A DNA stretch of 64,000 bases from Podospora anserina (lineage: Eukaryota), in contig CM030337.1 in assembly GCA_017654855.1 (NCBI GenBank), forward strand, positions 1,736,001 through 1,800,000. The letters are read 5' to 3'. Shown here one piece after another: positions 14,529 through 38,589 of the stretch. The notes below the pieces were generated by a model, which did not search any database, was not told the DNA's origin, and saw only the letters and a program-made list of their open reading frames with translations. The position numbers and the translations under genes were made by a program. Each line of letters begins with the position of its first letter. Within the stretch, counting starts at the first letter, position 1.

Positions 14529-15125
14529 TTAGCTAATTTCCTGCAGCAACTGGAGTCTAGGGAAAGAAGCATACATTATAACGTCAACTTCGCTCGAAAA
14601 AAAAAGCAAAGATAGAGGGTGTCCATTGGATAGAATGACCCAGCGTCGAGCAATCCTTCTTTGCGCAACAATCTTACTACGCTTAACCATACTGTTGCAT
14701 GCTCGCTCACAGATATCAATTGCGACACTGTCGTCGCTACTTCCTCGCTTGCGACGGAACACTCCACTTTGTCTTTCCGTTCGGATCATGGCCTTCACCT
14801 GAGCGAAAAGATAGACGAGCCGGAGGTACGTAAGCCGTTGAATCGTGCCGGTTGTGTTGGACAGAACACTTTGAACTGTTCTGAACGCAGCAAAAACACG
14901 ATCGTCATGGCTTGTAAGATTCGGCGGTAGTATAGTGTGCGATAGAAGTACGATCCAGTTGTCCCAGACTTCTTGGCAGCGTAACCCAAAGAATTCGACG
15001 CTGCTGTTTTGAAGTAACTGTCGATACAGGTGGTCCACTTTGGCATTCTCGTCCTCTATGATCGAGTTTGAGGATAAAGAGGGGGGACTTGCCCCTTGCT
15101 CCTTGATATCGGCGTTTTGACTCAT
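14529..15125 (-). CDS. Hypothetical helical protein typical of fungal accessory regions (probably continues in a second exon)
   Basis: 198-aa ORF with RTERQSGVFRRKRGSSDDSVAIDI..RRIARRWVILS; GTATGC donor near its end. Confidence 0.5.
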   Translation of the reverse strand: MSQNADIKEQGASPPSLSSNSIIEDENAKVDHLYRQLLQNSSVEFFGLRCQEVWDNWIVLLSHTILPPNLTSHDDRVFAAFRTVQSVLSNTTGTIQRLTYLRLVYLFAQVKAMIRTERQSGVFRRKRGSSDDSVAIDICERACNSMVKRSKIVAQRRIARRWVILSNGHPLSLLFFSSEVDVIMYASFPRLQLLQEIS

Positions 15126-16493
15126 GATGTTTGTGTGTTTCTGGAAAAAGTCCTGCTAAAAGCGAAGAGTTGGTCCCTACTTATAGAAAAGACTTGTAGA
15201 CAGTGGCCTTTTTGATTTTAACACATCCGTCGCGGTTCGGGCGCTCAATGTTACAAGTGGTTCCGCGCCATTATAAAAATAGGAGACAATATGGCCTATT
15301 TGACCAAGAGGCCGTGAAAATCTCGCGCCTTGCAAGTACAGGTGATCTGATTTGGATGAGCTGTTACAGGCTGCGGTCATCCTGAAACATCTTCGTGTGA
15401 GAATTCAGTACATCTAAGTGAGCGATTCATCACTCTCAAACCTGAAAAGTGGTCTCTACCACACTCGCCCTCCAGTCTTCTTTAGGGGCGCAATTTTGGT
15501 GCTACATCACATTCTGACTTTCTATGCAAATGTCACCATGGTTTATTTTATGGATATCAGAGCGCAAATACGTTCTATTGAAATGCCAAACTTGAGTTTG
15601 CCGAGTAACCAGGGCAAGGTAATCAATACCTAGTGTACACCATCCTCATCCAACGAAAAAGCCTATCCCAATGAACGCCCAGCGCCATACCTAATTACCT
15701 CCAACACCATGATCGAAGCATACAAATAAATAATATGAACCCCCTTATCCAACTAAACTGCCCGTCTTTTTGCTGCCCTTTCTTCCACACCCCCGCTGAT
15801 CTCCACGTATTTACGCTTTTTAGTCGGGCAGTCTGTCTTTGGAACAACCAGTTCTGGTCCAGCTTCCTCAGGTTTTACCCATGTTGTCATTATATCCTCC
15901 AGCGGCTGGTCAGCGTAAGGCGAGCGATACCATTCATCCAACAGAGACACGATCTTGGCTTCGTCCATGTTTTTGATGATTGCTAGGAATGTGTGCTTGT
16001 ACGTTTCTCTTTGTCGCTGGCTGAAATATTTAAAAATGTAGAAAGAGTTGAAAGAATAACTTGTGTGATTCCCCAGTGTAAGGCACCTCATTTACTTGGA
16101 GGCCATGACTTGCCTTATATCTCGACTTGTTAGCTAAAAATAAGGCAGGTCAGGTTTTCAACTCTAGCAGAGGCCAGACCTGACGTTTCAGAGAAGACTA
16201 TTGAAGCCATGTTATCCGTCAAGGTCAGCCCGTGGTCTACAAGACCAGCGCGATTAGACCGGGCAGAGGTCAACTTTTGCAGATGGTTCTTTTACATGCA
16301 ACATCCTTCTCTGAGTCTTGGCGCCAAGGCCATACATGCACGGGACGTCTTGGCGCGCTAAGAAACGTAAGACTCCTGGCAGGAGTCTTACGTTTCTTGG
16401 CTCTAATATGGGTCTCATCTAATGTAAGGCGCCAGCCGCGTCTTTGTTTACAACTGTTTTTTTGTCTGCACCGGCGCATAGAGAATCGAGACA

Positions 16494-18745
16494 ATGGAGC
16501 TCTTCACAGCAAAGCTGGATGAGATTTCCGTTAGGATTCAATCATTACCTCAGCATATCAAATCCACCAGGCGCCATGCTTATAATTCAACACCAGACTG
16601 GGCTGCGCTATTGGCCACTTTGCAGGAACTGAGACTGCTCGTTGGGAGGCTGGAGTCGGCTTTCTACCCTTCCCCAGGAGAAGGTCGAGAGGGAAAGCAA
16701 CCGAGGAAGTCGATAGTTCATACGTGAGTTCATCTCCAAAATATAGGGCGCATAAGCTGATCACCACATGTAGCGCTTCATTACGGCCAATGCACACCCT
16801 TCCCTCTGGCATACCAGCGTCCCCGCTCGCATCGTCGACGCCAGCCCGAGACTCTGTGGGGTCCGAAAGTTCGTCCAGCCCCACTATCTCCTCGGCATCG
16901 AGTATCAGCACAAACACCAGCTCGGCCGAGTTAGTACCTAGTAGATTTGTATCTCGCCCTATAGACTCGCCAGTCCCAGCAGCCACCTTTCGCTTTGTTA
17001 GTGACAGAGGAAACAGTGTGCCCAATCCTCCCGACAGCATGCTGCACCTATCAGATCTCGGAGACAGTCTGCTCAACACTCTTGGTAGTATCATATCTCA
17101 AAATAAACACACCGCCAAGGTCTCCCTGGATGACATCGACTTCAACAACATGGCACTTGGCAAAAACGTGATACCCCTCGCAAAGGATCAGCAATTCGCC
17201 GTTAGATATCAAAACAGCGACCACCCCTCCTGCTCACAACTCCACCTCGATCCTTGCAACAAGCTGCGTCTTCCCGTGTTGAAGAGAGACGCGTGCATCC
17301 CTCCTGACGAGAGATTTGATTCGTGGTTTCGGACACTCCTGAGTAACCCGCCGACTAAACGGGTTGCATACTACGTTGGTCCTCTTGAGGGAACATTTGC
17401 TGAGCATCTCCAGGATCTTTTTCCGTCTGGGAACCGCGTGTCTGAATTAATCACCGAATCATCGAGCACAGAAGGCCACTTTCCAGGGGTTTCGTCCCTG
17501 TACGGCCACATCGGGGAGGCAATGTCTGGCACCGCTTTTCATTGTGAGGACGCCAACTTACGATCCTACAACTTGACCCTTATTGGGTGGAAAACGTGGA
17601 TCTTGATCGAACCTTCTCATACTCTTGCGTTTGAGCAACTTATCCGACGGCTGCACCCCCATCCCAGTCAATGCGACCAGTTCGTTCGACACAGCGCTCT
17701 TTTGATACATCCAGATAAACTAAGGTCGGAAAAGATAGCCTTCAGCGTTGTGCATTCGGGCCCTGGAGATCTGGTTCTGACACGGCCGCGCCAGTATCAT
17801 GCAGTCATAAACAGAACCGCCTCCTTTGCGATAGCCACCAATTTCGTGCTGGGTGACGAAGATCCCATACCTGAGCGCCTCTTGGTATGTACGGAGGACG
17901 CTTTCTTTCACGTCAAGGACCACAGAATACGCAGGCTAGGGTCCCGCAATGCATTTGAGGAACAGAACAAAGCCACTATAGTGTCGGTGAAACGTCATAC
18001 GCATACGATACCAGAGAAACGGCTCTTCAAAGATATCTCTGCGGAGTCCTCGGATATTTTTCCAGTCATCGCAACTTTAACGTCTTGGATGCAAACCACC
18101 GGCCCGATTCTTCGCCTAGTCTCTCTCGTCGGTATTTGGCGTTGTAACGACTCTCTCCGCAAGTCCCTATTACAGATTCAGTCTCAGCACGGAAATGAAC
18201 TGCTTGAAGCTCTATCCGGCCTCAGTAGTCAAACATCTCGATACTCACATTTCCACTCGTTCTTGGAGACCCTTGTCAATATACGCTTTGTACGGTCGCT
18301 CCAATCGCCAGGCAAGAAACGGATTCCTCGCAAATCCGTCGAAAGGGTTCTACGCGCGCGCAAGTTAGATCTGACGCCGGAGACTCGAAAATCCTTCCAG
18401 AACGAGCTCTCGCACTACCGTTCCTAGGCGGATTTCTGCGGTGAAGCACCGGACTACACCTATGATGGCATTCTCTGCCTTCTTCCTCTAGGGTTTTCAG
18501 ATCAAGTGGAAGTTAGGAGGAATGATATACGCGACCTTACCAAGGCGGCGTATCAATCTTTTCACCTTAACCTTAACACTCTACCATATTTTTCGGGCTT
18601 GTGCCAAATCGGTCAAAGGTTTCAAAATGCAATTTTTAGTCTAACAGATCTTAAAGAGCAGCCCTTCGAACAAGTACAGGAAGAAGACTTGATGAGGTTA
18701 CCCTTAGAAGATCTACTTGCACTCTTGGGATTGCCTCAGAACTAG
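16494..18745 (+). pseudogene. JmjC-domain (KDM4/KDM5-like) putative histone demethylase; in-frame TAG at 18425-18427 truncates the C-terminus
   Basis: SGTAFHCEDANLRSYNLTLIGWKTWILI (HxE and Lys), CDQFVRH, and GDLVLTRPRQYHAVIN (distal His). Intron 16724-16773 joins in frame. The ORF ending 18745 is in frame beyond the TAG. Confidence 0.8.
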
Positions 18746-19097
18746 CAACCAGTATATGTTGAGGGGCCAATGGGTGCGTGCGAGAGGCTACCTCCCCGCG
18801 TTTGTACTGTCATTTTTCAAAGCTTTGAGGGACCCATGGTCTCAACGTCGGCTCAGGTCACGGCCTGTAGCTTTTGGTGAAGAGTGGCGATGGCGGCGCT
18901 GGAGGCACGGGTTTGGTTCCATGATAGCCGTCTCATGATGAATTAACGGAGACACTTCTGAAATTGACTTTGCCCTTCTGAAATAATTTGAACGGCATTT
19001 GACGGGTACCTAAATAGTCAAAAATACTATAAATCTCAAGTGCCCCGACAACACTTTCACTTAGCTGTCTATCTTTCCAAACTACTAGCTTTTTTGC

Positions 19098-20294
19098 ATG
19101 GGGTGGGTCAAAATGAACCGACCTAGTTGTCCGAAAGTATCGATTAGATCTCCGTTCGGCTCCTCTGAAGATTGGAAATGCAAACGATGCATATTCTTTG
19201 ATCAAATCTTCAAAACTCGCGATTTTCTCAATCATTTAGAGGTCAAAAACATACAGGCTGATTTTTTCGGGACAAGTCTAGACGAGCTGGTTGCCCAGCC
19301 GGCAACTCACGGTTTCCATTATATCGTTTTCATATCTCACGGTATGGGGAAAGACGCATCGAGGCCTGAAGAAAGAGCGAAGACGATCTTGTCGTGTTTG
19401 CTACATCACAAATATCATGAAGAAACTTGCGAAGCCGAAATCACAACAGGCTCGGGCGCAACCATTACTCTCAACATATGGCAGTGGGTTCATCAAGCAT
19501 CGCATGTGGAGGTTGGGGACTTTGAGCGCCGCTTTCCCATGATAGAGGGGCAACCTGGTCGATGTGGCTACATTGTTGGTGCGAGACACCGTATCGAGGA
19601 TCGGGTGATTGAGGTACTTGAGAAACGGAGATTCAGGCAGCTTTCCGCAACGAATTCCGCAACGAATTTCAAGTTTCATCAGTTTGGCAGCATCATTATA
19701 TACCCTTATCCTTGGGGTATGTTCGCCAATTTTTGGGGACACGTAACGAGCCTCGAAAGTGTTTCTCCCCCCAAAAGGAAGCGAGAGGCTGAAAGTCACG
19801 AAGAACATGCAAGCAAACGAAGGAAAGTACCTGGACAGGGCCCCGATTCTTCCGAGCATTCTTCTACCTCATCTGTGAAGCGAGAGGCTGAAAGTCACGA
19901 AGCCCCTTCAATTAAACGAAGGAAAGCACCTGGATAGGGCCCCGATTCTTCCGAGCATTCTTCTACCTTATCTGTGAAGCGAGAGACTGAAAGTCACGAA
20001 GTCCCTTTAATCAAACGAAGGAAAGCACCTGGACAGGGCCCCGATTCTTCCGAGCATTCTTCTACCTCATCTGTGAAGCGAGAGGCTGAAAGTCACGAAG
20101 TCCCTTCCAGCCAAAGAAGAAAAGAGGCAGGGCCCAGCCCCGAGGCTCCCGATAAAAAGAGGAAGCGAGAGGGTGAAAGCCAGCAGTGTCCTTTGATCAA
20201 AAGAAGGAAGGAAGCTGAGCCCGTACACGAACCTGCCATCAATCCTACGAGCTCAATATTGGAGCAACTACTGGCAAACAAGAAGCCGACATAA
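19098..20294 (+). pseudogene. Hypothetical protein with NLS-rich 33-aa C-terminal repeats; TAG at 19935-19937
   Basis: 99-bp repeats KREAESHE.P.IKRRK.PGQGPDSSEHSSTSSV. Copy 2 has GGA TAG GGC where copies 1 and 3 have GGA CAG GGC. Confidence 0.6.
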
Positions 20295-20455
20295 GACGCC
20301 TTTACTCTCGTACAATTTGACTCCGCTGGTCCGGAGGGTAGCGCACTCGAGGGAATTTCGACGACATAAGGTAGGTAGGTAGGTAGGTATGTTTCTTTGA
20401 TGATTTGGTTTTGGGTGGTATGTTTCTTTAATAATTTTGGGTAATAGATTCGGTG

Positions 20456-21359
20456 TTAAACTATCTCCACAATATGCTCCTCTGCTAGATAATTGTCTTT
20501 GTGTTCTCGACGTGATAAAACTGTAGAACATGTAGCCTCAGCTCCCTGTTTGTTTTTATGATCGCTCTCATCCAAAATTCTCTCCCTCCCAACATGCAAG
20601 AATAGCCGCTTCTTCATTCCCACAATGGCTGGCCAGAGGAGAGTCTGAAGGATGGTCAGAGCAAGACTGGTCATTTCAGCGAGATACAAGCCTTGCCAGT
20701 TGGTAGACATTCCAACGACGATAATGAGTATGGAAAAAGCTAAAAAAATAGCGAGCCATGCAAGCCTCCAAGAGATCGATTCCGACTTAATGCCGAGATT
20801 CTGGGTAAGTCGCTGTTTCCTCCAGATTATAAACAGCCAGAATGCCAGTACTCCGGTGTACGTGTGTAGCAACAGGAGAGATGATAGAAGAATACGCGGG
20901 ATTGTCTTAACGTTCCAACATCCTATAATAATAAGGGCGACGTTGAGAAGTATTGGGCTCGCGAGAAGACACCACCGTAGAACGATATCATGTTTGTCAT
21001 ATATTAGAGACAGACAGAGCGGATATATCACGTATATGGTCTATTGAAGTCAGCTGAAGGGTCTTCGGCGATCAAGGTCCGTGGGGATAACTGACATGAA
21101 CGACATGCAGCGAAGTGTAACATGCAACTGTGACTGAAACAGTCATATTCGTGATGAACAAATCGATGGCCAGGAACACGACGACAAGCAGTAGTGATAT
21201 GGCGGAAGAGCAAAACTGCACCATGGACTGTTTCCAATGTTTCTCCTGCTTAGTGCCGATGAAAAAAGACACAAGAGGCTGCCGTGCGATGATCAGAATG
21301 ATGATATGGATGGGAAGAGAGATTGCAGCAGCCACAATCATTTCAGAGGTGCCTTGCAT
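20456..21359 (-). CDS. Multi-pass membrane protein (~7 TM, divergent PTH11/rhodopsin-like), 2 exons
   Basis: About seven hydrophobic segments across ORFs 21072-21359 and 20456-21031, joined by a GTCAGT..GCTGAC..TAG intron; charged C-terminal tail. Confidence 0.55.
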
Positions 21360-22014
21360 TTTGTGAGTTTGGAATCGGACAAATACTAGATACCTCTTAC
21401 CTTAACTGTTATTGAAGGTAGCCACTTTTTAATGTAGGCGTGCTAGCTTTCAGGCCATGGCTACTGATGTCAACACGGAGCGTGCTTGACTTCTACACGA
21501 TGGAACGAGATGCGGAGTTTATTTCGGACCAACTCCTCCACCACCGCCGCTGCGGCGCAGGATCACTATCACACCCGTGACCTACCAAGCCAAGCTTGCG
21601 ACGAGGGCAGGGCATGAATAGTGTGTTGTGATGGATGATACCCTACAGTGTTGAGGCACAGTGTTGGGGCGATCTTTAAACACAGTGGAAGAAGTGCGAC
21701 TGTTCGGTGGCACCTCGGTAACCGTACCCAGGCTAATACGTGCTGGGTAAGGGCGGGGTCTGGGTTGGTACGTACCACTTTGGAGTGGGAGGTTTCCTTC
21801 CCTCATCTTAGTGAGGGCTGATTCTACAGCGTAGTGCCATACAATTCAGTCTGGCGTCTCTCGCAAGCTCAGCTTTGAACTCACGCCTCAACAAGTATGC
21901 CTCACAGCGGCCGCCAGCAGCATATATAAGCGGCACCTCCTAACCTCACCTCAGTCAAAAACACTTTGTCCATATGTTTGACACAAATCATTGCCTGCTA
22001 TCTCTTTTACTGCC

Positions 22015-23635
22015 ATGATGAGCATCGAGACACTCGATTTTGCTGGCCAGGCGACTGATCTTGTGTTAGAAGTTGGCCCCAAACCAATTCTTCTGAGAGT
22101 ACAGGCAGAGCTTCTTGAGAAACACTCGCCGGTCTTCAAGAAAATGTTTCTTCCAGATCAAATGGATTCTATCACATTTGATGGATCGGGTACACGACAT
22201 ATCTCGCTTCCGGAAGATAACCCTACTCTATTCCGAGCCTTATTCTACGCTATCCACGGCCAGTTCGCCAATGTAACTGCCCTTTTTACTGTTCTCAACT
22301 TCGCGACAATTCTACAAACCATCGCATTGGCAAGCAAGTATGGAATGGTCCCAGTATTTAACCCATGGATAGGCAGTCTGGTTCTACGAATCCGAAGAAG
22401 CTTGCAGCTATTAGATAGCAGCGAACTTGTAAGTTGCGCCCTGATTCTCAGATTTATCGGGGACATTGAAAATCTATTTCTCGCCATCTACATTCTTGCC
22501 CATTTTGCCAGTCGGGAGGATAAAGAAGGCAGGATGATTCTTGATTCCATACAGCAGCCTTAGTCAGCAGAGCAGTGTCAGACGCCTGCGACAGGATATC
22601 TCCAAGGGATTCCAATTGATGCAGGCTTAGACCTGATAGGTAAGACAGAATCAGAACCCATTCTCACCCCTAACTAACATTGAGTAATGGAACTAGATGC
22701 TATTGAAAGTGTACGGGAAGGCTTATATCGCAACATAGCTATGATCGTTCAGAAGAAGTTTCGAGAGTTGAATGACGCTTCCCAATGCCGATGCTATAAG
22801 AAAAGTATGAGGGCCATTCAACAGTTCCTTTCTCTTTCGCAAAATCAAGAAGAGCAGATCTTTCTCGACCTGGTAGGATCTGAGGTTGTTGAAGTTCAGA
22901 CCCTTACATCCTTTCGGCGCACATCAATCGCAAATCTAATCACTCTGGTCAATACTACGATGAAGGCAGGAATCCAGCCGTACTCTACCGGGAGTAAGTC
23001 TTGTTTCACGTGGGAGCCGCGCTAGATAAACCATCATAAGTTCGACGTCGCTTCAATTCCTTACATCATCTGTAAGGCGGATTATTTTAGCAGCATAGCT
23101 AATCGGCAAATGTCAATTCGAAGACATGATCTAGGGCTCAATTCAAGTTTGCACCGGTCATCGGTCATCGATACGGCATTGAGCTTAGGTCATCACGCGC
23201 AACTACGTCCTCAATCACAACCTCTGCTTTTAACTGCTGGATCGTCACGGCGCTGGAGGATAACCAGAATATCTAATTTCGTTTTTTGTTTTGAAGGTGC
23301 ATTTTACTTGGAGCAGCAACTCTACGCCGATTCTCTATACATCCACTGCCGAGCTCAGTTTCCGCTGCCACCCGGGGCAAAATACTTTTTGGATATTGTT
23401 GGACATGATATTGATGGAATTTACTATACCGGTAGGATCATTCATCGACTAACATACGTTTCGCGTCGTGCTGACCCATCTTTGCTTAGATGAAGAGCCT
23501 TGCTGCGCGGTGATTGCACGGACTTATGGTCCGGACTATACGGCATATGAGTTTCAGTCTGCACAAGAGCAGAAGGACTTCTTAGCATCAATGAGCGCAG
23601 TTAATAGTAAGAAGGTCTCAGTAGTGAGGAGGTAA
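22015..23635 (+). pseudogene. BTB/POZ-domain protein; in-frame TAGs at 22561 and 23023
   Basis: DLVLEVG..LRVQAELLEKHSPVFKKMF..ISLPEDNPTLFRALFYAIHG..IALASKYG is a fungal BTB signature. The frame continues past both TAGs, and there are two GT-AG introns. Confidence 0.75.
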
Positions 23636-23668
23636 GCACATCATTTTCTCTGTAACAAAAGCAAGCAT

Positions 23669-24713
23669 CTAACCATATAATAGGCAAATCTTGACTGGTT
23701 TGGTGAGTTCGTTGGGGGGAGCGATGAAGTGGCAAGCGGGTGAGGTGTAGAATATCTTCTCGAGGAGTTCTTGATGCTTAAGGCAGGACAAGATGTTGAT
23801 AGTATGATAAGATATACGCTGGCGGAGGAAAATGTGGCAACTCAGATCTCTCGTCCTCCACGTGCTGAACCCGATCGTGTGTAACCATAACCTGACAGAG
23901 TGCTTCGTGATCCACATCTACCCCTATAGCCTTGTTCCATTCTGATAGCAGCATCGAGCTGGATGCTAGAAGTTCGCCAGGCAGGCCAGTGAGGTAGATG
24001 ACCTATGTGCGTGTCAGCACGCGATGTTGAGAATTTGGGATAAACGCACAAGCAGAAACTCATCATCGTCAGAACACAGCAACCCTGCACAGCAGCTCAT
24101 CGAACAGAGTGATATGATAATGTAGGCTAGAAGCTTTCGTCTCTGAGATCGTGATACAAGTAGTAGTCGTGTCAGAAGAAGAAGGTACTCCGTTGCAGTC
24201 CAGGCATGTATTGAACACGCAATGACAAGAATGCTAACTCTGCCGACATTGGCAATGTGGTGGGCGCTTGCCATGATCCCCCCAAGCAAGAGGGCACTGC
24301 CGGCGGCCGCTGAGAGAAGTTTACGTCGACCACGGGGCTCAGTCCAAGATACACAGATCATGTGTATGATACGCTGTTTTATGTTATTGAGTGGACCGAT
24401 TTTGGGGGCGACAGCCTACTTCTGAAAGTGTGCGGTAGATTCCAAGCGCATAGATGCAAGTTTCAAGCCGTTGGACAAGCAAAGGCGGTATAATAGCCAC
24501 AACTGACAACTGGGCAATCCAAAGGCAGTCGAATGCCAAAGCTTGCGAGGTGAAAAGGCCTTTGTGCTGATACTGTTGCCCATGCGACCTCTTCCGGGTA
24601 GCGAAAATGCCGTTGGAGAGGGCATACCGTCTCACGAGGAGCCCTCCGAGGCTGAGAGCGGCCATTGTCCATACGATGACAACGAATGAAACTGCGGCCG
24701 CTGAGTGCGCCAT
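23669..24713 (-). CDS. Multi-pass membrane protein (divergent PTH11-like), possibly disrupted; 3' end uncertain
   Basis: VVIVWTMAALSLGGLLVRRY first helix and several further hydrophobic segments over adjacent ORFs. Confidence 0.4.
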
Positions 24714-25005
24714 GGGAAAGACCTGGAAATTCGGAGAAGCCCGTTGGAACTGCACAATTTGGTCTGAACGAGCGCAGGCCAACGGTGTTTTGTAGACCCC
24801 AGCCCCATTCTAAAACTCATGCCTTCACAAGCAAGGCATCCGCGCCGCCAGTACCGCCAACGAGCTGCCTCCAGGTAAAAATAGTTCAGTTCTTATGATG
24901 GCTATAAGTATCTAAGGTATGTCGTGAGGTGATGGGTGACTTCTTGCAGCCGTGTCATCGCTCACCTACTAGCTCACATCCATCAAACACCCAGACTTGA
25001 TACAA

Positions 25006-25648
25006 ATGGCAAGAAGCAAGACACAGGGTCGAAGTCGTCCCCGGCGCAAAACGTACAAAACAAAGAATGTCCCATCCAGGAAGGTCTGGGAACGTTATCA
25101 AAACTACAAATCTTTCTTCCGTAAGTCAACACTATCCTGTACACATGGGAAGCTTAATCTAATCCACAACAGTTAACGAAACCAGATTCCGTGTCGGTGA
25201 TACTATCTCCGTTGCCAACCGTGATACGGTGAGGTGGCAGCAGGACACGGGAGATGGCAAAGCAGATGCAGATTGTCAGCCTAAATGGGCCGCACGCATC
25301 ACATCTATCAGGGCTAAGGATCCTGCAAACGTCTATGCACTGGTTCAGTGGTTCTATTACCCCCGTGATCTTCCCGAGAAGGCGCAGACAGATGCCGTTT
25401 TTGGTGAACAAGAGCTCATCTTGTCAAATCACAGTAGGTGGCCAGACCGCAGCTGGTAGAAAGCTTGTGACACTAATCACTTTGGGTACCTAGCCGATCT
25501 TATCCGAGCGCAGAGTGTCATAGACATTTTGGAAGTCAGAGACCTCCGCGATGTTGACGATGCACCACGACATGGTATGTACTGGAGGCGGTTCTGGGAC
25601 GTTCATGCTCGAGACTTCTCCAACAACGCAAATATCATTGGTCTGTAG
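25006..25648 (+). CDS. Standalone BAH-domain protein, EPR-1/BP1 (EBS/SHL)-type, lacking a PHD finger; 3 exons
   Basis: Spliced translation: YQNYKSFF|LNETRFRVGDTISVAN..WAARITSIRAKDPANVYALVQWFYYPRDLP..FGEQELILSNH|TDLIRAQSV..GMYWRRFWDV. Confidence 0.8.
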
Positions 25649-26524
25649 GATAAAATCCCTAGGTAGTTTGTTGCGCAGTAAACGGGGTCGGTTTTTTCTA
25701 TCCTACACCAATGACATTATGTGCTGGGTTTAACTCTTGTCCAATCGCGTGTTATATACAGATGCTTATCAACAAGATCAAATGTGGGGTAAGAATTCTG
25801 TGCCGCAGCTAAATCCATGGGTTTGATGAACACTAGGAAAGTTCGGGTCCCATTACCGAATATGACTCTACTCCAGCATCGCCACTTTGGTGTACAATAT
25901 TTATAGTGTTGTCAGGTATTCTTGAAACAGAAAGAAAGATGCTCTTTACTTTAATCACATGATTCAGGAAATTCAGTTCGATATATAGCTGGACAAAAAC
26001 CCCTACAATATTTCAACATAGGCACATCCTGAATCTTCTGAATTGCTGTTCTAGAAAACAACCAACAAATCACAGTAACCCATGTGAACTAATCTGGATC
26101 TCCCGCATTTGCCCCACAAAACCGATCCTTCGCTCCTCAGCTCCGCGCTTACCCATCAGCCTTACCATTCAGTCATGCATGGACAACGTTCGATGCCGAA
26201 TCATTGACTGTTGCCGGCAAGCCAAGTCACTGCAGAGCCGCGGTATTACGCTGCAATACTATATAGCTGCAAGATGCGTTTGGTCATAAGAAGTCAAGAT
26301 CCTTAGAACATTTATCCCATTCAAACAAAACTTGTAGCTACCTTGGATCGATGAGGGTAAAGCGGTACAACAATAGCATTCTGGTACATTTGTCCTTCTA
26401 ATCGATAACTTCGAATCCCATCTAAATCTGTCTAAAACCCGTCTATTATATATCTACCTATCTCCTGTGTCGTTTTTGTCCTAGTAGTTGTGCGAAGGCG
26501 TGCATACGACTCCGTAATGATTAC

Positions 26525-26864
26525 TTAGCTTGCATGAAAGTCCTTGTCGTCCTCTCCTTCACCAACGCCCCCAACTGTATGTGGAGTATAGATCAGCGGC
26601 AAGGGATATGATGTCGACTGAGAACCCAATTAGGAATGTGGCACGGAAAGCAGGTAGATAGATACTTACAATGTTCTTCTGGGTTGGTGGCCATTCTCCG
26701 TCCATTGTATTGGAAGAGTAAATGTAAAAGCGGTGGTTCTTTCGGATGATCAAGTAGACCTGGGCGTCACAGAGCTTATGGAATTCGTCAACCTTCTTGA
26801 TGAGTGTCTGTCTCCTTTTCCTGGTACGTGCCAGTCGTCGTTGGTGTTCTTTACGTTTATCCAT
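26525..26864 (-). CDS. Small SRF-type MADS-box protein, 2 exons
   Basis: RKRRQTLIKKVDEFHKLCDAQVYLIIRKNHRFYIYSS..WPPT, then a GTAAGT intron, then STSYPLPLIYTP. Confidence 0.8.
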
Positions 26865-27016
26865 GCTGAGGGTAGATTTACATGATTCAGATCATGTTAC
26901 TCCCCGCCTTGCTTTGCGGTCAATATATGTGGAAACAGCTTCAAGTTGTGATCCAAATATAGGAGAAAGTCCTGACACAGTAGCTTTTTTGAAATGATAT
27001 CGAGGTAGGATTGGAG

Positions 27017-27107
27017 ATGGCGCTGGCAATGGCGCTGGCGATAGCGATGGCGCTGGCAATGGCGCTGGCGATAGCGATGGCGCTGGCAATGGCGCTGGCA
27101 ATGGCGC
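27017..27107. repeat. ATGGCGCTGGCA / GATAGCG composite tandem repeat between the divergent MADS and C2H2 genes
   Basis: Directly visible 12/18-bp units. Confidence 0.85.
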
Positions 27108-27410
27108 TGTGTCTCATATTGGCGATGTGTGTGGAGCTGGTCACCGATCGTCACCTTTTCTCACCGAAGCACCTATACCTAAGATGGAACTTGACCCCTA
27201 CCTCTCGTCCAGAAATAGGACCCTTTAACTTGTTTTCTCCCATATCCTAGGTCACATGATCAAGTTTTACATGTAGGAGAGCATCTTGCTTCGATGGACT
27301 TGACCAATCAGAACAAGTTCCAAACGGTCGGGTATATGTGACAGGCTTATAAACAACGAAGGGAAACAACACTTTTTACCAGCCTGCTTTCAGTTATCCC
27401 CGCAATAGTT

Positions 27411-28159
27411 ATGAATTTTCAGACCGATGTTTCGTCCTGCTTCTGGCCAGTCCCTGTAACAGGCCCGGGGTCGACAGTCAGTCCAGAGTATTGTCTACAT
27501 GAAGCTCTTTTCTCACAACACTTCAAACCGACCAGCCATGACAACACATACTACAGCCCGGTCGGCTGGCCACCACCTCCCCGAAGCACGCTATTAGCCC
27601 ATCCTCAAGGGGCACCTTTCTACAACCCGACCATGGATGCACCTAACTACCACAACCAGGACTCCCAGAGACAAGAGTGTAGCCAACCACCGCAATCTCA
27701 CACACTGTGGGAAAGGCCACCGCCTCGCCGGAGACGTACAACCCGTTCCTCATCACACGTTTGCAAACTGTGCAATAAATGTTTCACACGGAGATACAAT
27801 TTGTCTGCTCACATGGAAACACATAACAAAGATCGAGAGCACCCCTTTCCCTGTATGGGGTGTACGAAAAGATTTGTTCGTAAGACGGATTGCGAACGCC
27901 ATTACAAAAGTGTTCATCTGAAGGAAAGGCCTTACTTCTGTGGGTATTGCAAGCAAGGATTTACCCGCAAAGACATCCTCTCCAGGTCAGTAGAAATACC
28001 GAGTTGAATTCTTTTCCATTTTCTAACAGTTAGTATTTTAGACACATGGCAGTTGTATGCCCGAATATCGAAAGACAACAGGCGCCTGAGGAAGAGGACA
28101 GGACACATATGAAAAGTTTAAACCAGTTTGTTTGGGCCGGAAGCGATAGGGTTTCATAG
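27411..28159 (+). CDS. Three-finger C2H2 transcription factor, 2 exons
   Basis: CKLCNKCFTRRYNLSAHMETH, CMGCTKRFVRKTDCERHYKSVH and CGYCKQGFTRKDILSR|H, with an intron at ~27986-28040. Confidence 0.9.
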
Positions 28160-28363
28160 TTTGGGAAATTGTATCATATTGATCGACTTTGGTTTTGGGT
28201 GTGCCTGATGCTTTGGCCGACCTGCTAGGTACGGCCAGGGATTTGGTATGGAGTTTGGAGTTGGGTCAGTACTGCATATAACAAATCTTTATAAAGTCCC
28301 TCCTCTCCCCTGATATGAAATGCTTCTCTTCGTTACTTCCCTTACCTTTATCTGGCTGTTACG

Positions 28364-31300
28364 ATGCCTGTGGCTCGTAGCTTAACTGAAAAAGCCGCCA
28401 AACGAATCGCGAGACAAGTTCAACGCTTTGCCTTTCAGAATCCCAACACATTTACCTCCGATGATGTGAAAATCGCGGTAGCGATCCAAGGCGAGAATAT
28501 CAAGGGTCGGGATACTCCTCGAGATGATGAATCGGAACTTACGGAAAAGAATCTTGCTTGGGCCAAGGAGAAGACCAGAGTCAAGGATATGCAACGTTTG
28601 AAGGACTACTATATGGCAAATCAAGACAACAACACGACTCAGACCGAATTACACAGTCCCTATTCACCCGTTGTCCTCAAGGATACTAACTCAAGACAAA
28701 CACGAGCAAAGACTGCAGCTGGACTGCAAAATACAACGCCTCGAGTCAAGGAATCCTCTGTCACCCCTGTCAACGGACCCGTGGATACAAACGGTAAAGC
28801 ATTAAAGAATACTGCAGAACAGGGAAAGTCGGGGAACTTAAAGGGACAGACTACTGTAGCTGGACTACAGAGAAAGGAGTCTTTACAAGGTCCAAGTGCT
28901 ATGCAACAGCAAAATGAAATTTTGAAAAAGGCACAAACGTCAGAAGTTACGCTGGCGCCTTCGAAGCCGAAGCCAAAGCAAGGCCAAAGCCAGACGACAA
29001 ATCAACCGCAAAGAAAGCCAACATTAAACGGTCAGAGTGGCGGCCCACAGGCACAAATCACTCCACAAGGCACCGGCATGCAAAAGAAGGCAACTTCGGA
29101 TGGAAACAGGTCAGACTCACAGCGAGTATTAGTTGCTAGCCTGCCAAAATTACAAATCCCACAGGCACCGGAGCTGGGAAAGGAAATTACATCTGCTCAA
29201 CAGAAGAAAGCGGCTGAGCCACAGAGAAAGGGCACGACATCTCAGAAGTTAGCTGAGCCTCAGACTGCACCTACTCAGCAGAGGAAGATGACAGAGCCAG
29301 CGATAAAGGGAACGACGTCGATTCCCGAGAAGTTGGCTGAGCCACAGAGAAAGGGAACGACGTCAACTTCCCAGAGGAAGGAGGCTGAGCCAGTGAGAAA
29401 GGGAACGACGCCAATTACTCAAATGGCCGGGCCACAGAGAAGGGGAACCTCTGGGCAACCTCCTACGTTTAATATACAAAGAAAAAACTCTTCACAGTTG
29501 CCCATGGCCGAAAGAAATCAGAAACACCCGCCACAGCATGATTATTCAGTAGGCTTGCGGGTTTTTCCTGTAGCCCCGGATCAAAAGTCTTCGCAAGGGC
29601 AGGCTGCTGCATCACACAAGCCTGCTACCCCCACAGCACACAGCTTGGGACAGTATCACAAAAAACAGGGTACTTCACAAATACCCGGACAGCCTTCAGC
29701 GGGGCAAGAACAATCCGAATCTCAAAAGAACCATGCAACAAGAGCAACTCCACATAGCATAGAAACAGAGATATTCCCCAACAGCCTGACAGGTTCCAAG
29801 CGCAAGGCCTCCGGCCCTCTTCCAACGACCGGCACAAAGCGTTTCCGCCCAGACACCGCAAGAGCGAATGTACAAATTAACGGGAATGAAGAGCTTGCCA
29901 CAAAGCCATTATCTCACAGGGATTCAGATACACGCCAATCAGTTCAAATAAATGACGCCCCGCAAGGGGTATTAGAAACACAGTCGAAGGAACCATTCGA
30001 CGAAGACACCATCATGGCTGAGTCGCCAGTTGAAATCTCATCTACCAGCAACCGAAATAGAAAGAGGCAAAAGAAGTTGGTGGATAGCGAAAAAAGTATC
30101 AATGATAAAAATGATAGGAAGCGAAAACGACAAAACTCGCACTCTTCTGGCGACGAGGTAAATATCAGGCCCTTTGCTCAAACATATCAGTCCAATCAGC
30201 ACCAGAGTCATGAGGCTTCTTCTCAACCAATGCAACACAAAAAGTTCACCCTTCAACCTAGTGTATCTCCGGAAAACAACATATCAACGGACCAAACGTC
30301 AATAAATTCGAACAAAGCAGCCGAAGTTCACATACCGCAAAAGCCGAATATTATATTCGAATCGATGTACAAGAACTTTCAGAATCAACGTCCTGAACCG
30401 CAGGAAAATCCTACATCCCAAGAGAAAAACTCACCAACTAGTCAGCCTGCGCAGCTATCGGGACAGGAGCCCGCTCGAGTGAACAGCCCAAAAAGCCCAC
30501 AAGGCGAAGCACAAGCATCGCATATGGGTGAGCAGCCCAGATCCCGGGATACATCAACACCAGAAAAATATTCACATACATATCATCAATGTAAAAAGAT
30601 GTTTGATAAAGAGAGGCAGCTGTTTTCCGGACAATCACTACCGTCCGTGACTCCAAATGTGAGCCACATACACCCGCATTTCTCAACCACGAAGCAAGAG
30701 GTTGACGAAACTTGGCCACCGCATATCCGACGATCGACCAGCACGTGTACTTTGGATGGGAGGCCGGTATTGCCGCAACAATACCAAAGCCAGTTATTCA
30801 CGCAACGGAATTCGGGCACAGAGAACGAGGCTTGGCCACCACAAGGTGCTCGATCGGCTAGTATATCCACACCGCCACAATACCAAAGCCAGCCATTCAC
30901 GCAACTTAATTCGGGAACGCATTATTCACCTCCAGACAGTCGATACCACCATGCGAGAGGAATTAGTCCTTATGCGGACGAGCGGGAATTATTTCAACAA
31001 TTCCAAGACTGGCGTGTTCGCCAGCATGTGAACGCGCCCAATCGTTTAGCTTCTCGACAACCTACAGAAATTCCCCTCTTTAACTCTAACAGTTTGCTAC
31101 CAAAATCAAATTCGAAAGATAACTTCACCTATCCATCTTCGTCTTTGAAGATAGAGCTTGCGCTAAACAAAAGACTCGCCAAGATACAATCGGGAAAGCC
31201 TGCAGGACAGCCGCCCACCTATTTAACATTTGATATTCAGAATGGAAACCAATATTATAGATGCAAGGGTGAAGTTATTGGTCTCGATAGACTTCTCGGT

Positions 31301-34606: not shown

Positions 34607-34880
34607 TCATGTTCCGAGCCAACCTTCTGATTTACACAATCGGCAGTTGACGCTGAAGTCGAACTACCCACACTCGGCATCACTATGAGCTGGTAAATTA
34701 GGAAATACTTGAACTTAATGAGGTCTATTGTCTGTAAAGACAGTTAAAGTATTTAAGTCTGACCGATACTCCCCTATTTGCTTTCATACCTGTCTCTTAT
34801 TCTCCACAAGCCAGACACAGTTTACCTCTATTTATTATCGGTTTACTAGCACCTTTTACTTCTACTCTCAGCATATCAAT

Positions 34881-35859
34881 ATGGTTAAGTTGAGAGACGT
34901 TCTCCTTCAGGCCCCGTTTCCAGATAATACTGCCTCATTTCACAGATTACTAGGAGCTGGCAGACCCACTCTGACCCAGAAGCCCTGGGCGCGAGACTAT
35001 CATGAGATCCAAAACCTTCAATACTATCTAAACCCTACCGAAGACGACATCGATCAAGTGTTTGGGCCCGAAGATGCTTTAGACGCCTATCTCCTGAACA
35101 GGGAGGTAAGCCCTCTAAACGTCACTACCGAATTGTTACAGACGGAGGGCGACTCTGTCAGGACATTCTACACCAAAGTCGCAGAACCCATCCAGCTCGC
35201 CTTCCAACCAGTTGTCGCTTTACGGTCAGAATCAGGACCTCTTGGCCCAACCGACGTTAACCAGACCATTGACTTCACTTGGGGATATAGAAATCATTGC
35301 CTTATAATAGGGGAACTTAAAAGGCATGGGATAATCGATGTCGATAGGTGGACGGGAGTGGCTGGACAAAATACTACTCGGACCTGGCTAGGAAAGGAGC
35401 TAAGAGGGTAAGTATAATAGCCCCATAATAATAACTGTTTACTGATAGATATATAGATACTGCTATAAATACAAATGCTTCGCTGGAACAATATTTGACG
35501 GCCAGCACCTCATGATCCTTATATTTCATGCTCAGGCAGCTCGGAATATCCGCGACCAAAACTGCCAAGTTACTGCCCTTTTTTTCACAAGCAACTGGGA
35601 AACATTACGCTATGGCCTCTTCCGGACCATGACCCATCAGATTCGGAGAATGCAAGCTGCCGAGCCCCTGGAAGTAATCTTGGATGGTTATCATCGTAGA
35701 TTCAGATGGTATTCAGGAATGCCTTATTGGGTTGATAGGAACGATGAATACGACGCGCATCCCAATGGTTATATACGGCAATTTCATGTGTCCGGGGCAT
35801 GGTACTGGATTGACGGGGATGGGCAGCGGGTCTGGGATACTATCGGCCTCGGGTTTTAA
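34881..35859 (+). CDS. PD-(D/E)XK restriction-endonuclease-fold-like protein, 2 exons
   Basis: QTEGD..TIDFTWG..LIIGELKRHG..KELRG|YCYKY..IFDGQHLMIL gives E..D..ExK..ExxxY spacing. The intron from ~35408 joins in frame, and there are no internal stops. Confidence 0.65.
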
Positions 35860-36025
35860 CATCTGCAGTTTCCGCCTAATTGAGTTTTGGTGCCTAGAAA
35901 AGTGGATCCCACTCGTTTGCTTGTGCTACCTTCTTCTTTTTATAAAAACCTTAAGCCAATTCCACCTCGCTTAATTTTCCTGCGACCATTCTCCTCTATC
36001 ACTCTACCCTATCAATTACTTCAAG

Positions 36026-36952
36026 ATGGAAGACAATGAAGACTGCGGAACTAAGGTATATACTTTAACTTCTAAATACTAAAATTTACTATTATTAATC
36101 GTAGTTCTATAGGACATACAGTTTGGCTTCCGACGTTTTCGAGCACCTGCAAAACGAATCTACGCGAATCGGAATGTCTTTCTCTTGGATGTCCCGCCGA
36201 ACCCAATTGCTAGCTGGCTATTATTTTGGATGCCGCAGCTCGTCCGCTGGCTACAGCGATTACTACCAGAGTGGTTCTTGCCGACAACTGTTATTCTAAA
36301 GGAGCGAAACCCCACCAAGGCTGATAGCTACGAAAACGAAATCGATACATACCTGCATCTTCGATCCCTCCAGGGTACCCACATCCCGCGTTTGTTTGGT
36401 GAAGTAACCGTTAGCGACCCCCACGCGCAGAGATACCAGATCAGTAAGCGACCCACTCCTGCTATCCTCCTAGAAAACGTCGAAGGAGTATCGCTATACA
36501 ATCTTCCAACCGAAGAGCTAGGGAATCCTCGCCTTCTTGAGGAACTCGAGGATATGTATAACCTACTTACGGAAAAAGGGGTTGTTCATGGGGATCCAAA
36601 GCTCCACAACTTTCTACGTGTTGATAAGAAGATCGTTGCTATCGACTTTGAGTTGTCCTACCCTCTTCCTAGTGATATAACGAATGAGCATGAATTGGAG
36701 GAATTAAAGAGCGAGATTAAGGAACGGGAAAAGCAGGCACAGGAGGCAAAATTGGAACGTCTCGTCCCGGGCCCTGTCATTGTAAATGGTTTACGGGTAC
36801 GAAAGAGGACGGATTTGCCGCCTTCCGGCACAACGACCCATAACGAGCAGAGGGGTGACGAGGGGCTGTCTACCCTGGGAGCTCAGCTACCTAAGGTGTG
36901 TTCTCGGCACGGGCGTGTTGGGCCGCGGCCGGGAACGACATATGGTGGATGA
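36026..36952 (+). CDS. Atypical protein kinase-like protein (same motif style as the SPOK kinase domain), 2 exons
   Basis: VILKE (beta3 Lys), ENEIDTYLHLRSLQGTHIPRLFG, ILLENVEG, HGDPKLHNFL (catalytic loop) and IDFE. Confidence 0.85.
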
Positions 36953-38556: not shown

Positions 38557-38589
38557 GCAGAGACCGAGGGAGAGGATTGCAGGGGTCAA

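What the first reader, a model, noticed from the sequence alone, without database searches (positions are those of the whole stretch)
16494..25648. Element-borne chromatin eraser and reader: JmjC demethylase plus PHD-less EPR-1/BP1-type BAH domain as a possible anti-silencing kit
Seen: a JmjC domain with intact HxE..H and Lys residues in KDM4/5-like context, and a small three-exon BAH-only gene keeping aromatic residues (WAARI, QWFYYP). Known: KDM4 enzymes remove H3K9/H3K36 methylation, and Neurospora EPR-1 and Fusarium BP1 are BAH-PHD readers of H3K27me needed for Polycomb silencing. Inference: a BAH-only copy could occupy H3K27me as a decoy while the JmjC erases repressive marks, protecting the transposon from heterochromatin. 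Caveat: this JmjC allele has a TAG after the catalytic domain.
Basis: partly seen in the sequence, partly recalled or inferred. Interest (0 to 1): 0.8.

Follow-up and report, generated by a model that had tools for sequence, protein, structure and literature searches.

The report
KDM4-like demethylase and PHD-less BAH reader
A fungal chromosome segment holds a histone-demethylase-type gene (broken in this strain by a genome-defence mutation) and, 6 kb away, a small histone-mark-reader-type gene, both next to a giant-transposon-type recombinase gene, but nothing yet shows that the two work together.

Summary
Both observations are real. Positions 16494-18745 (+) hold a two-exon JmjC gene, which protein names identify as Podospora anserina Pa_6_2460. 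Its catalytic core matches KDM4 in sequence and fold, with all metal and 2-oxoglutarate ligands present, and RNA-like contigs show it spliced. The TAG is private to this strain. Four of four other runs read TGG. Sixteen of the 17 differences from another strain are G:C>A:T in CpA/TpG context, so it is a RIP-type mutation. It removes the conserved last 106 residues.

Positions 25006-25648 (+) hold a three-exon, 176-aa BAH-only gene. It keeps the W/W/Y cage and the His of H3K27me3-reading BAH domains; EBS and SHL are the nearest solved relatives. I found no PHD exon within 2.6 kb. Its P. australis orthologue also lacks a PHD and appears to lie five genes from a JmjC gene.

"Element-borne" is plausible but unproven. 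An intact 790-aa DUF3435 recombinase gene (43050-40476, -) reads towards both genes. It neighbours Pa_6_2440, the closest paralogue of the Enterprise gene Chekof. I found no element ends, second copy or empty site.

The anti-silencing-kit idea has no direct support: four unrelated genes separate the pair, 0 of 16 other JmjC loci carry a BAH, and null JmjC alleles segregate.

The parts
16494..18745 (+). JmjC gene (P. anserina Pa_6_2460). Exon 1 is 16494-16723, the intron 16724-16773, exon 2 16774-18745. The intact form is 733 aa; this allele stops at 627 aa.
   Evidence: Spliced contigs of X15 and X16. P0113 is PODANS_6_2460. Script check of the reading frame. N-terminal homology to P0002.
17510..17845 (+). 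JmjC (cupin) domain. His at 17540-17542 and Glu at 17546-17548 form the HxE; Lys is at 17591-17593 and the second His at 17798-17800.
   Evidence: Pfam PF02373, 61.4 bits. Invariant columns of A1. KDM4D alignment. Codon positions computed from the P0001 offset.
18425..18427 (+). Premature TAG, a strain-private RIP-type TGG>TAG change that removes the conserved last 106 residues.
   Evidence: G at 18426 in 4 of 4 other runs. W in 7 of 7 database alleles. TpG context.
16348..16394 (.). 47-bp stretch upstream of the JmjC ATG that is absent from strain X2. It is bounded by a 7-bp direct repeat and contains a 19+19-nt palindrome.
   Evidence: Joint 16347>16395 in X2, with 7 letters fitting on both sides. 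Sequence read.
19089..20294 (+). Intervening gene with 99-bp (33-aa) tandem repeats rich in KRRK. It has an in-frame TAG at 19935-19937 where sister repeats have CAG.
21982..23025 (+). Intervening BTB/POZ-domain gene (ORFs 21982-22563 and 22684-23025).
   Evidence: Pfam BTB, 23.5 bits, cut-off 20.5.
25006..25648 (+). BAH-only gene of 176 aa. Exons are 25006-25120, 25173-25433 and 25494-25648. Cage residues: W at 25286-25288, W at 25349-25351, Y at 25355-25357. The His of the SNH motif is at 25430-25432.
34722..36952 (+). Kinase-like ORFs (34722-35411, 35449-35859, 36113-36952). I infer, but have not verified, that these are Pa_6_2440, the closest paralogue of the Enterprise gene Chekof.
   Evidence: Pfam APH, 28.8 bits. 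Order of accessions CAP71384 to CAP71387. Passage in PMC8092012.
40476..43050 (-). Intact DUF3435 tyrosine-recombinase (Starship-captain-type) gene with C-terminal C2H2-like fingers, 790 aa. Exons are 43050-42884, 42834-42480, 42428-42088, 42036-41726 and 41674-40476. The reference annotates only the last 388 aa, as Pa_6_2430.
   Evidence: Pfam DUF3435, 65.6 bits (cut-off 25.8), on the read-through with X at stops. Splice signals read. Open frame checked with a 46-nt first intron of the same phase. P0106 is 100% identical.

Best explanation
The finding covers two real, separately transcribed chromatin-type genes. They are neighbours in an orphan-rich accessory block of Podospora anserina chromosome 6 (Pa_6_2430 to Pa_6_2460).

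Gene 1 is a KDM4-like Fe(II)/2-oxoglutarate dioxygenase: a complete KDM4-type catalytic core followed by a family-specific helical C-terminal domain. In most strains it is intact and transcribed. I infer that it demethylates trimethyl-lysine on histone H3, of the K9/K36 type. In this window's strain a RIP-type TGG>TAG change cuts off the conserved last 106 residues, so this allele is probably null or crippled.

Gene 2 is a 176-aa PHD-less paralogue of the EPR-1/BP1/EBS reader. It keeps the W/W/Y methyl-lysine cage and the His that reads H3 Pro30, and it has a basic N-terminal tail. I infer that it binds H3K27me2/3 in the nucleus but, lacking the PHD, cannot engage PRC2.

The block lies downstream of an intact Starship-captain-type recombinase gene and a Chekof-like kinase gene, so it is probably cargo or a remnant of an Enterprise-like element.

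Shown here: gene structures, family assignments, splicing of the JmjC transcript, the RIP-type nature of the stop, and the likely linkage of the pair in P. australis. Inferred: substrates, nuclear location, element membership. No evidence yet says the two genes cooperate.
For: Identity of the locus:
- P0106 is PODANS_6_2430, 100% identical.
- P0113 is PODANS_6_2460.

JmjC gene:
- Pfam JmjC 61.4 bits and KDM4D/A at E 5e-14.
- AlphaFold model of P0001 (99% identical to the window's ORF), pLDDT 80. Foldseek's top matches are all KDM4 cores, E about 6e-14.
- VIA-align gives Z 24.4, rmsd 3.4 A, 280 aligned residues, with model residues 1-303 matching KDM4B 12-320. This includes the JmjN region.
- 40 invariant columns across 21 homologues at 28-65% identity. 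They include the ligands and C219, H225 and C291 at the KDM4 zinc-site positions.
- The splice junction appears in contigs of two studies.

The stop:
- 17 of 17 differences from X2 are A/T in the window against G/C in X2.
- 16 of the 17 lie in CpA/TpG context, P = 3.6e-8.
- Allele P0115 has 7 amino-acid changes, all explicable by G>A. Allele P0118 has 3 C>T changes and ends where the window has CAG.

BAH gene:
- 77 relatives at E<=1e-3, and all 29 of 29 that I scanned hit Pfam BAH at E<=0.001.
- Model of orthologue P0029, pLDDT 81. Its top folds are EBS, AIPP3, SHL and BAHCC1, four of them solved with H3K27me3 peptide.
- The family profile hits EBS at 1.4e-14 and SHL at 3.5e-13, with the cage residues aligned.
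- A review passage (PMC13068663) describes the Trp-plus-two-Tyr cage and the His that reads Pro30.
- No PHD exon in 24000-28300, best score 5.7 bits.

Linkage of the pair:
- P. australis BAH is KAK4184123 and its JmjC is KAK4184128. Each is recorded on a longest contig of 55,915 bp.

Element context:
- DUF3435 at 65.6 bits, an open 5-exon frame, and the Chekof/Pa_6_2440 passage.
Against: - No element boundary, target-site duplication, second copy or empty site was found. All 14 DNA-like runs listed hold at least 93% of the region's words, so no presence/absence polymorphism is seen.
I did not see the DNA.
- Its JmjC is only 33-34% identical to this one, while its BAH is 72-73% identical over exon 2. 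Orthology of the JmjC pair is therefore uncertain (tree).
- The BAH gene is not annotated in the P. anserina reference as far as one search shows: only P0029 was found among longer proteins, which the tool calls weak evidence.
- Pfam JmjN does not hit.
- The recombinase's catalytic residues were not checked.
- Demethylase activity and methyl-lysine binding are inferred from homology only.
Confidence: 0.5

Rival explanations
1. The JmjC enzyme and the PHD-less BAH protein are co-selected cargo of a Starship-like element. The BAH occupies H3K27me as a decoy while the JmjC erases H3K9/K36 methylation, keeping the element out of heterochromatin.
For: - Both proteins keep their functional residues.
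- BP1 lacking its PHD still binds H3K27me3 but not Suz12 (PMC8501951 passages).
- The pair appears linked in a second species.
- A captain-type recombinase reads towards them.
- The Enterprise captain Kirc itself carries a chromodomain (PMC8092012 passage), so chromatin modules on such elements have a precedent.
Against: - About four unrelated genes lie between the two.
- 0 of 16 metagenomic JmjC loci carry a BAH. Seven of them have at least 5 kb of flank on one side.
- No DUF3435 or BAH appeared in the 64 ORFs scanned from 9 of those loci.
- The RIP tract (15076-23024) stops short of the BAH gene, so the two were not hit as one unit.
- At least two truncated JmjC alleles exist in nature.
- RIP, not histone marks, is the defence seen acting here.
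- Full-text searches found no paper with Starship plus JmjC (0 papers) or Starship plus BAH domain (0 papers).
Confidence: 0.1
2. There is no element. These are ordinary lineage-specific chromosomal genes inherited vertically. The recombinase gene nearby is a solo or domesticated DUF3435 gene, and the RIP-type changes come from transient segmental duplications of the JmjC segment.
For: - The region is present in all 14 DNA-like runs listed.
- There is no second copy in the window and no heavy RIP; the composite RIP index is negative throughout.
- No terminal repeats pair the recombinase end with another site.
- Linkage in P. australis fits vertical descent.
- The RIP tract is only a part of the block.
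Against: - The recombinase gene is intact and oriented like a captain.
- It sits beside the closest paralogue of an Enterprise gene.
- The JmjC family is patchy and multi-copy, with four paralogues in Neurospora tetraspora and members in Xylariales and Eurotiomycetes.
- 4 of the 11 species-named homologues lie on contigs under 60 kb.
- Independent RIP-type alleles in several lineages imply repeated duplication.
Confidence: 0.3
3. The BAH gene is a non-functional relic of a BAH-PHD gene that lost its PHD exon. The JmjC gene is likewise on its way to decay.
For: - The BAH gene was not found among annotated P. anserina proteins.
- Pfam BAH is below the cut-off on exon 2 alone.
- JmjC nonsense alleles segregate.
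Against: - The BAH frame is open across three exons with canonical splice signals.
- It is 63% identical over its full length to an annotated PHD-less orthologue that ends the same way.
- The cage residues and the His are kept.
- There are no differences between the window and X2 across 23025-27000.
- The JmjC ligands are invariant across the family, and the reference and most alleles are intact.
Confidence: 0.1

Closest known systems
KDM4/JMJD2 histone lysine demethylases (human KDM4A-D, yeast Rph1)
   Same: It has the same catalytic core fold from the JmjN region to the mixed domain: Z 24.4, 280 residues aligned, model 1-303 against KDM4B 12-320. The HxE...H, Asn and Lys ligands are present, and Cys/His occupy zinc-site positions. 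Like KDM4D it has no PHD or Tudor readers.
   Different: Identity is only about 20%. Pfam JmjN does not hit. The Lys sits one residue closer to the HxE. It has its own Ser/Pro-rich N-terminus and a roughly 230-aa helical C-terminal domain with no recognisable relative. Its distribution is patchy and often multi-copy. Activity is untested.
EPR-1 (Neurospora), BP1 (Fusarium), EBS/SHL (plants): BAH-PHD readers of H3K27 methylation
   Same: It has the same BAH subtype. EBS and SHL are the best profile and fold matches. The aromatic cage and the His of the S-x-H motif are kept. Relatives in the same search include BAH-PHD proteins.
   Different: There is no PHD finger, here or in the P. australis orthologue. 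It is only 176 aa, with a basic N-terminal tail. BP1 needs its PHD to bind Suz12 and to function (PMC8501951 passages), so this protein cannot be a simple equivalent.
Enterprise / Starship giant transposons (captain Kirc, accessory gene Chekof)
   Same: A DUF3435 tyrosine-recombinase gene with zinc fingers reads into a block of orphan cargo-like genes. Its neighbour is the closest paralogue of Chekof (PMC8092012 passage).
   Different: No ends, RGGTAG-type duplication, extra copies or empty sites were found. No chromodomain was detected. Vogan et al. report Pa_5_10116 as the only Kirc homologue they recovered in P. anserina (passage). That may be because the reference model of Pa_6_2430 lacks the recombinase part; this explanation is my inference.
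Repeat-induced point mutation (RIP)
   Same: All changes are G:C>A:T, 16 of 17 in CpA/TpG context, with strand bias (14 G>A against 3 C>T). They produce stop codons without frameshifts.
   Different: The mutation is very light, 17 changes in 8 kb, and no duplicate partner is visible now.
VANC anti-silencing proteins of Arabidopsis VANDAL transposons (recalled from memory, no call)
   Same: It is a conceptual precedent for a transposon that encodes a factor removing repressive marks from itself.
   Different: The proteins and the mark (DNA methylation) are unrelated, and no such activity has been shown here.

Membership tests
KDM4/JMJD2 demethylases | JmjC cupin with Fe(II) ligands HxE...H | tested here: met
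   Pfam JmjC 61.4 bits. H, E and H align to KDM4D and are invariant in 21 sequences.
KDM4/JMJD2 demethylases | 2-oxoglutarate-binding Asn and Lys after the HxE | tested here: met
   N185 and K192 are invariant. The Lys is reached through a one-residue gap in the KDM4D alignment.
KDM4/JMJD2 demethylases | JmjN domain packed on the JmjC | tested here: inconclusive
   There is no Pfam JmjN hit at E<=0.01. However, the model aligns from residue 1 to KDM4 residues 8-20 onwards, which spans the JmjN region.
KDM4/JMJD2 demethylases | Structural zinc site (Cys, His, Cys, Cys; residue numbers recalled from memory) | tested here: inconclusive
   C219, H225 and C291 are invariant at matching spacing, but no fourth ligand was identified.
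KDM4/JMJD2 demethylases | Demethylation of H3K9me3/H3K36me3 | not testable with these tools
   This needs an enzyme assay.
EPR-1/BP1/EBS BAH-PHD readers | BAH domain with aromatic cage and the His that reads H3 Pro30 | tested here: met
   The W, W and Y align to EBS Y49, W70 and Y72, and the SNH motif aligns to SDH. Top fold matches are H3K27me3-bound BAH domains. Cage description taken from PMC13068663 passages.
EPR-1/BP1/EBS BAH-PHD readers | PHD finger directly after the BAH | tested here: not met
   The protein ends 51 residues after the BAH exon. No PHD-like exon lies in 24000-28300 (best 5.7 bits). The orthologue P0029 also lacks one.
EPR-1/BP1/EBS BAH-PHD readers | Binding of H3K27me2/3 and link to PRC2 | not testable with these tools
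   This needs peptide binding and interaction assays.
Starship / Enterprise-like elements | DUF3435 tyrosine-recombinase captain gene | tested here: met
   DUF3435 65.6 bits against a cut-off of 25.8. The 790-aa frame is open across five exons. Catalytic residues were not checked.
Starship / Enterprise-like elements | Captain is the first gene at a defined element end, with terminal repeats or a target-site duplication | tested here: inconclusive
   The orientation fits. No repeat pairs the 43.05-44.03 kb spacer with another site, and no RGGTAG-type junction was seen. The other end may lie outside the window.
Starship / Enterprise-like elements | Presence/absence polymorphism or several copies | tested here: inconclusive
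   14 of 14 DNA-like runs listed hold the region, but the search lists only holders. There is no second copy in the window or in X2 at 90% likeness or more. RIP-type alleles hint at past duplication.
RIP-mutated sequence | G:C>A:T transitions concentrated at CpA/TpG | tested here: met
   17 of 17 differences run in one direction and 16 of 17 are in context. The background is 0.29, giving P = 3.6e-8.
RIP-mutated sequence | A duplicated partner sequence | tested here: not met
   None in the window and none in X2 contigs at 90% likeness or more. The whole genome was not available.

The most novel reading that the evidence does not exclude
An Enterprise-like giant transposon in Podospora carries its own chromatin counter-defence. 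The defence would consist of a KDM4-type eraser and a PHD-less H3K27me reader that blocks Polycomb-type silencing. The host's RIP machinery would be repeatedly knocking out the eraser. This would be a visible arms race between a fungal mobile element and two layers of genome defence.
Probability: 0.1. Interest if true: 0.85.

Novelty: new variant of a known kind. Interest (0 to 1): 0.45.

Why it matters
If the BAH-only protein binds H3K27me without recruiting PRC2, it would be a natural antagonist, or a new adaptor, of fungal Polycomb-type silencing. That is easy to test in a model fungus.

The JmjC family is an uncharacterised, patchily distributed branch of KDM4-like enzymes with a new C-terminal domain.

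Three by-products are useful in themselves:
- The reference models of Pa_6_2460 and Pa_6_2430 are truncated. The first lacks its first exon and the second lacks its whole recombinase domain.
- An unreported captain-type recombinase gene therefore sits beside the Chekof paralogue.
- The locus carries several independent RIP-type alleles, which makes it a natural series of knock-outs.

None of this yet shows an anti-silencing function.

Tried and rejected
- Whole genome: none is held for this window.
- Earlier notes of this scan: nothing by place, sequence or words.
- RNA evidence: no listed holder is on record as RNA. The RNA-like contigs of X15, X16 and X19 cover only about 16480-19005. The BAH gene has no cover in them, which says nothing about its expression.
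- PHD exon: an HMM built from 14 PHD segments (14 of the 78 BAH relatives carry the motif) found nothing in 24000-28300 on either strand.
- BAH next to other JmjC genes: tblastn of 78 BAH relatives against the 16 metagenome loci gave 0 hits.
- Pfam scan of other JmjC loci: I scanned 64 of the 149 ORFs of 130 aa or more from 9 of the 16 loci, dropping 85 mostly overlapping or antisense ORFs. Neighbours were AAA, HNH, HET, NACHT, caspase and DUF6594 proteins. None was BAH or DUF3435.
- Recombinase gene as pseudogene: I first read it this way because of in-frame stops. I rejected that reading because every stop lies inside a 51-nt intron with good donor, branch and acceptor signals.
- Heavy RIP: composite indices are negative across the window.
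- Second copy in the window: none, only tandem repeats.
- Enterprise-type junction: a CTACCT upstream of the recombinase gene is not followed by RGGTAG.
- C-terminal domain of the JmjC protein: the Atlas search gave no usable feature hit, and structural rows all had TM under 0.35.
- Rfam: 0 matches in the window.
- Family tree: the careful run did not finish, so I used the quick tree.
- Literature: Starship plus JmjC gave 0 papers, Starship plus BAH domain gave 0, and Starship plus demethylase plus cargo gave 1, which was irrelevant (a CYP51 reference). The Podospora sexual-transcriptome preprint mentions four differentially expressed JmjC genes without naming them in the text.

Full report
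**What is at the coordinates**

The window is fungal. Protein names returned by the searches place it in Podospora anserina. The ORF 40479-41708 (-) is 100% identical to PODANS_6_2430. The JmjC protein clusters with PODANS_6_2460, accession CAP71384.

The finding's start, 16494, is the ATG of the JmjC gene. Its end, 25648, is the last base of the BAH gene's stop codon.

**The JmjC gene**

*Structure and expression.* Contigs of two RNA-like runs from different studies (X15, X16) cover 16480-18948. They join 16723 to 16774, removing a 50-nt GT..AG intron. Exon 1 (16494-16723) is homologous to the N-terminus of the Triangularia setosa protein P0002. The full coding sequence is 733 codons plus stop. 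The reference model P0113 (651 aa) starts inside exon 2 and so lacks the first exon.

*Sequence.* Pfam JmjC scores 61.4 bits. By sequence the closest solved proteins are KDM4D and KDM4A (E 5e-14), followed by Rph1 and KDM5.

*Fold.* I modelled P0001, which is 99% identical to the window's ORF, with 21 homologues; mean pLDDT was 80. Foldseek's best matches are all KDM4 catalytic cores. VIA-align gives Z 24.4, rmsd 3.4 A and 280 aligned residues. Model residues 1-303 match KDM4B residues 12-320, so a JmjN-like part is present although Pfam JmjN does not hit.

*Conservation.* Across 21 homologues at 28-65% identity, 40 columns are invariant. These include both His, the Glu, the Asn, the Lys, and Cys/His residues at the positions of the KDM4 zinc site.

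*C-terminal domain.* Residues 348-575 of the model are helical. Nearly invariant motifs lie after the position of the stop. I found no relative for this domain.

*Family distribution.* The family is small and patchy, with 27 hits in the large protein collection. It includes four paralogues in Neurospora tetraspora and members in Chaetomidium, Microdochium, Cladophialophora and a SET-fused form.

**The TAG**

The stop is real but is an allele. X2 (DNA-like) and X15, X16 and X19 all read G at 18426. All seven database alleles have Trp there.

Across 15000-27000 the window differs from X2 at 17 sites. At every one the window has A or T where X2 has G or C: 14 A against G and 3 T against C. Sixteen of the 17 are in TpG or CpA context, against a background of 0.29, giving P = 3.6e-8. 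This is the signature of repeat-induced point mutation.

The sites run from 15076 to 23024, with none in 23025-27000. The tract therefore covers the JmjC gene but not the BAH gene.

Other lineages carry their own changes of this type:
- The reference-like RNA-run strains have G>A at 17605 and 17633 and C>T at 18577.
- Allele P0115 has seven amino-acid changes, all explicable by G>A.
- Allele P0118 has three C>T changes and ends exactly where the window has CAG.
- Allele P0117 starts at an internal Met, which may mean an upstream interruption. I could not check this.

In the window, the neighbouring repeat-protein gene has TAG at 19935-19937 where its sister repeats have CAG.

The window's JmjC allele encodes 627 residues and lacks the conserved last 106, so it is probably null or crippled. 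The gene is evidently dispensable in nature. Even so, family-wide conservation and the intact alleles in the reference and most strains argue that it is functional where intact.

No duplicate partner is visible in the window or in X2. There is also no heavy RIP. The cause of the repeated light RIP is therefore open.

**The BAH gene**

*Gene model.* I read three exons with canonical splice signals, giving 176 residues with no internal stop. No transcript evidence was available. Homology supports the model: the annotated 189-aa P. australis protein P0029 is collinear with it, 109 of 174 residues identical, and runs straight across both exon junctions.

*Domain type.* Exon 2 alone finds 77 relatives at E<=1e-3, mostly short fungal proteins. 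All 29 that I scanned hit Pfam BAH at E<=0.001, and some also carry a PHD. Fourteen of the 78 relatives carry the PHD motif.

The family profile hits EBS (1.4e-14) and SHL (3.5e-13). The family's W, W and Y align with EBS Y49, W70 and Y72, and its S-N-H aligns with EBS S-D-H. A model of P0029 (pLDDT 81) matches best EBS, AIPP3, SHL and BAHCC1, four of them solved with H3K27me3 peptide. A 2026 review, read as passages, describes this cage and the His that reads H3 Pro30.

*No PHD.* No PHD-like exon lies within 2.6 kb downstream on either strand. The orthologue ends the same way. The PHD-less form is therefore a conserved architecture and not a truncated prediction.

*What the missing PHD implies.* Passages of the BP1 paper state that BP1 without its PHD still binds H3K27me3 peptide. 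They also state that neither deletion form binds Suz12 or rescues the mutant.

**Are the two genes linked in function?**

*For.* In P. australis the BAH protein (KAK4184123) and a JmjC protein (KAK4184128) each have a longest contig of 55,915 bp. Their accessions are five apart, which matches the roughly four genes between the pair here.

*Against.*
- That JmjC is only 33-34% identical to this one, while the BAH is 72-73% identical. In the quick tree it sits on a long branch in the sister clade.
- None of the 16 metagenomic JmjC loci carries a BAH. Neighbours there are heterogeneous.
- The intervening genes look unrelated: a KRRK-repeat protein, membrane-protein-like ORFs and a BTB protein.
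- The RIP tract did not treat the pair as one unit.

**Is it element-borne?**

The five pieces of DUF3435 similarity on the minus strand first looked like a decayed gene. However, the in-frame stops all lie in three 51-nt introns with GTTAGT, GTAAGT or GTACGA donors, CTAAC-type branch sites and AG acceptors, and there is a 49-nt first intron. The spliced frame is open for 790 residues. Read through with X at the stops, it scores 65.6 bits on DUF3435 against a cut-off of 25.8.

The reference annotates only the last 388 residues. This probably explains why Vogan et al. recovered only Pa_5_10116 as a Kirc homologue in P. anserina (passage; the link is my inference). The same paper says the Enterprise gene Chekof is most similar to Pa_6_2440 (passage). 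By gene number and accession order, Pa_6_2440 lies between this recombinase gene and the JmjC gene. The kinase-like ORFs at 34.7-37.0 kb are the likely candidate, but I did not verify this.

The recombinase gene's 5' end faces a subtilase gene and a cluster of HET and NACHT-ankyrin genes. The gene reads towards the JmjC and BAH genes, as a Starship captain would. Against this, I found no terminal repeats, no target-site duplication, no second copy and no empty site. Every DNA-like run listed holds the region.

I put cargo, or a remnant, of an Enterprise-like element at roughly even odds. It is not demonstrated.

**Verdict**

The family assignments in the interpretation hold. Element-borne is plausible. 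The anti-silencing kit is an untested idea with several points against tight coupling. It is worth a modest experimental follow-up, because both genes are small, the organism is tractable and natural null alleles exist.

Noticed in passing
window 40476-43050 (-): The reference annotation (PODANS_6_2430, 388 aa) covers only the zinc-finger tail of what reads as an intact 790-aa, five-exon DUF3435 tyrosine-recombinase gene. Three of its introns are exactly 51 nt long and each carries in-frame stops.
   Followed up: yes
window 15076-23024: A light RIP-type tract. All 17 differences from strain X2 are G:C>A:T in the window, 16 of them at CpA/TpG. No duplicate partner was found, and the left limit lies outside the stretch I laid.
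   Followed up: partly
window 16348-16394: 47 bp upstream of the JmjC ATG are absent from strain X2. They are bounded by a 7-bp direct repeat (TCTTGGC) and contain a perfect 19+19-nt palindrome. This could be a small insertion footprint or a microhomology deletion.
   Followed up: no
window 19778-20107 and 19935-19937: A 99-bp tandem repeat (3.3 copies) encodes a KRRK-rich 33-aa unit. One unit has TAG where the others have CAG, which splits the ORF 19089-20294.
   Followed up: partly
window 6024-6213 and 38349-38570: Two minisatellite arrays share a reverse-complementary core (CCCTCCGCC / GGCGGAGGG). They lie 32 kb apart and bracket the JmjC and BAH genes but not the recombinase gene. This may be chance similarity of G-rich repeats.
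   Followed up: no
window 34207-34599: A MITE-like inverted repeat (55-nt arms, 84% complementary, 283 nt apart) with internal direct repeats, just upstream of the kinase-like ORFs.
   Followed up: no
window 31728-32231 (-): An isolated ORF with an ABC-transporter signature (GGERQR... and a Walker-B-like VVVDEGTSAID). It looks like a gene fragment.
   Followed up: no
window 28319-31663 (+): An uninterrupted 1114-aa ORF, mostly low-complexity and Q/P/K-rich, with internal repeats and no Pfam family.
   Followed up: no
window 43985-63706: To the right of the recombinase gene lies a subtilase gene, then a cluster of allorecognition-type genes: NACHT (NPHP3_N) plus ankyrin at 45882-49271 (-), two HET-domain ORFs at 53433-55082 and 59373-61301 (-), ankyrin at 52688-53737 (-), an alpha/beta hydrolase, and DUF7587.
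   Followed up: no
P0025 (Xylariomycetidae sp., 733 aa): One member of this JmjC family is fused to a C-terminal SET domain, putting a demethylase-type and a methyltransferase-type domain in one protein.
   Followed up: no
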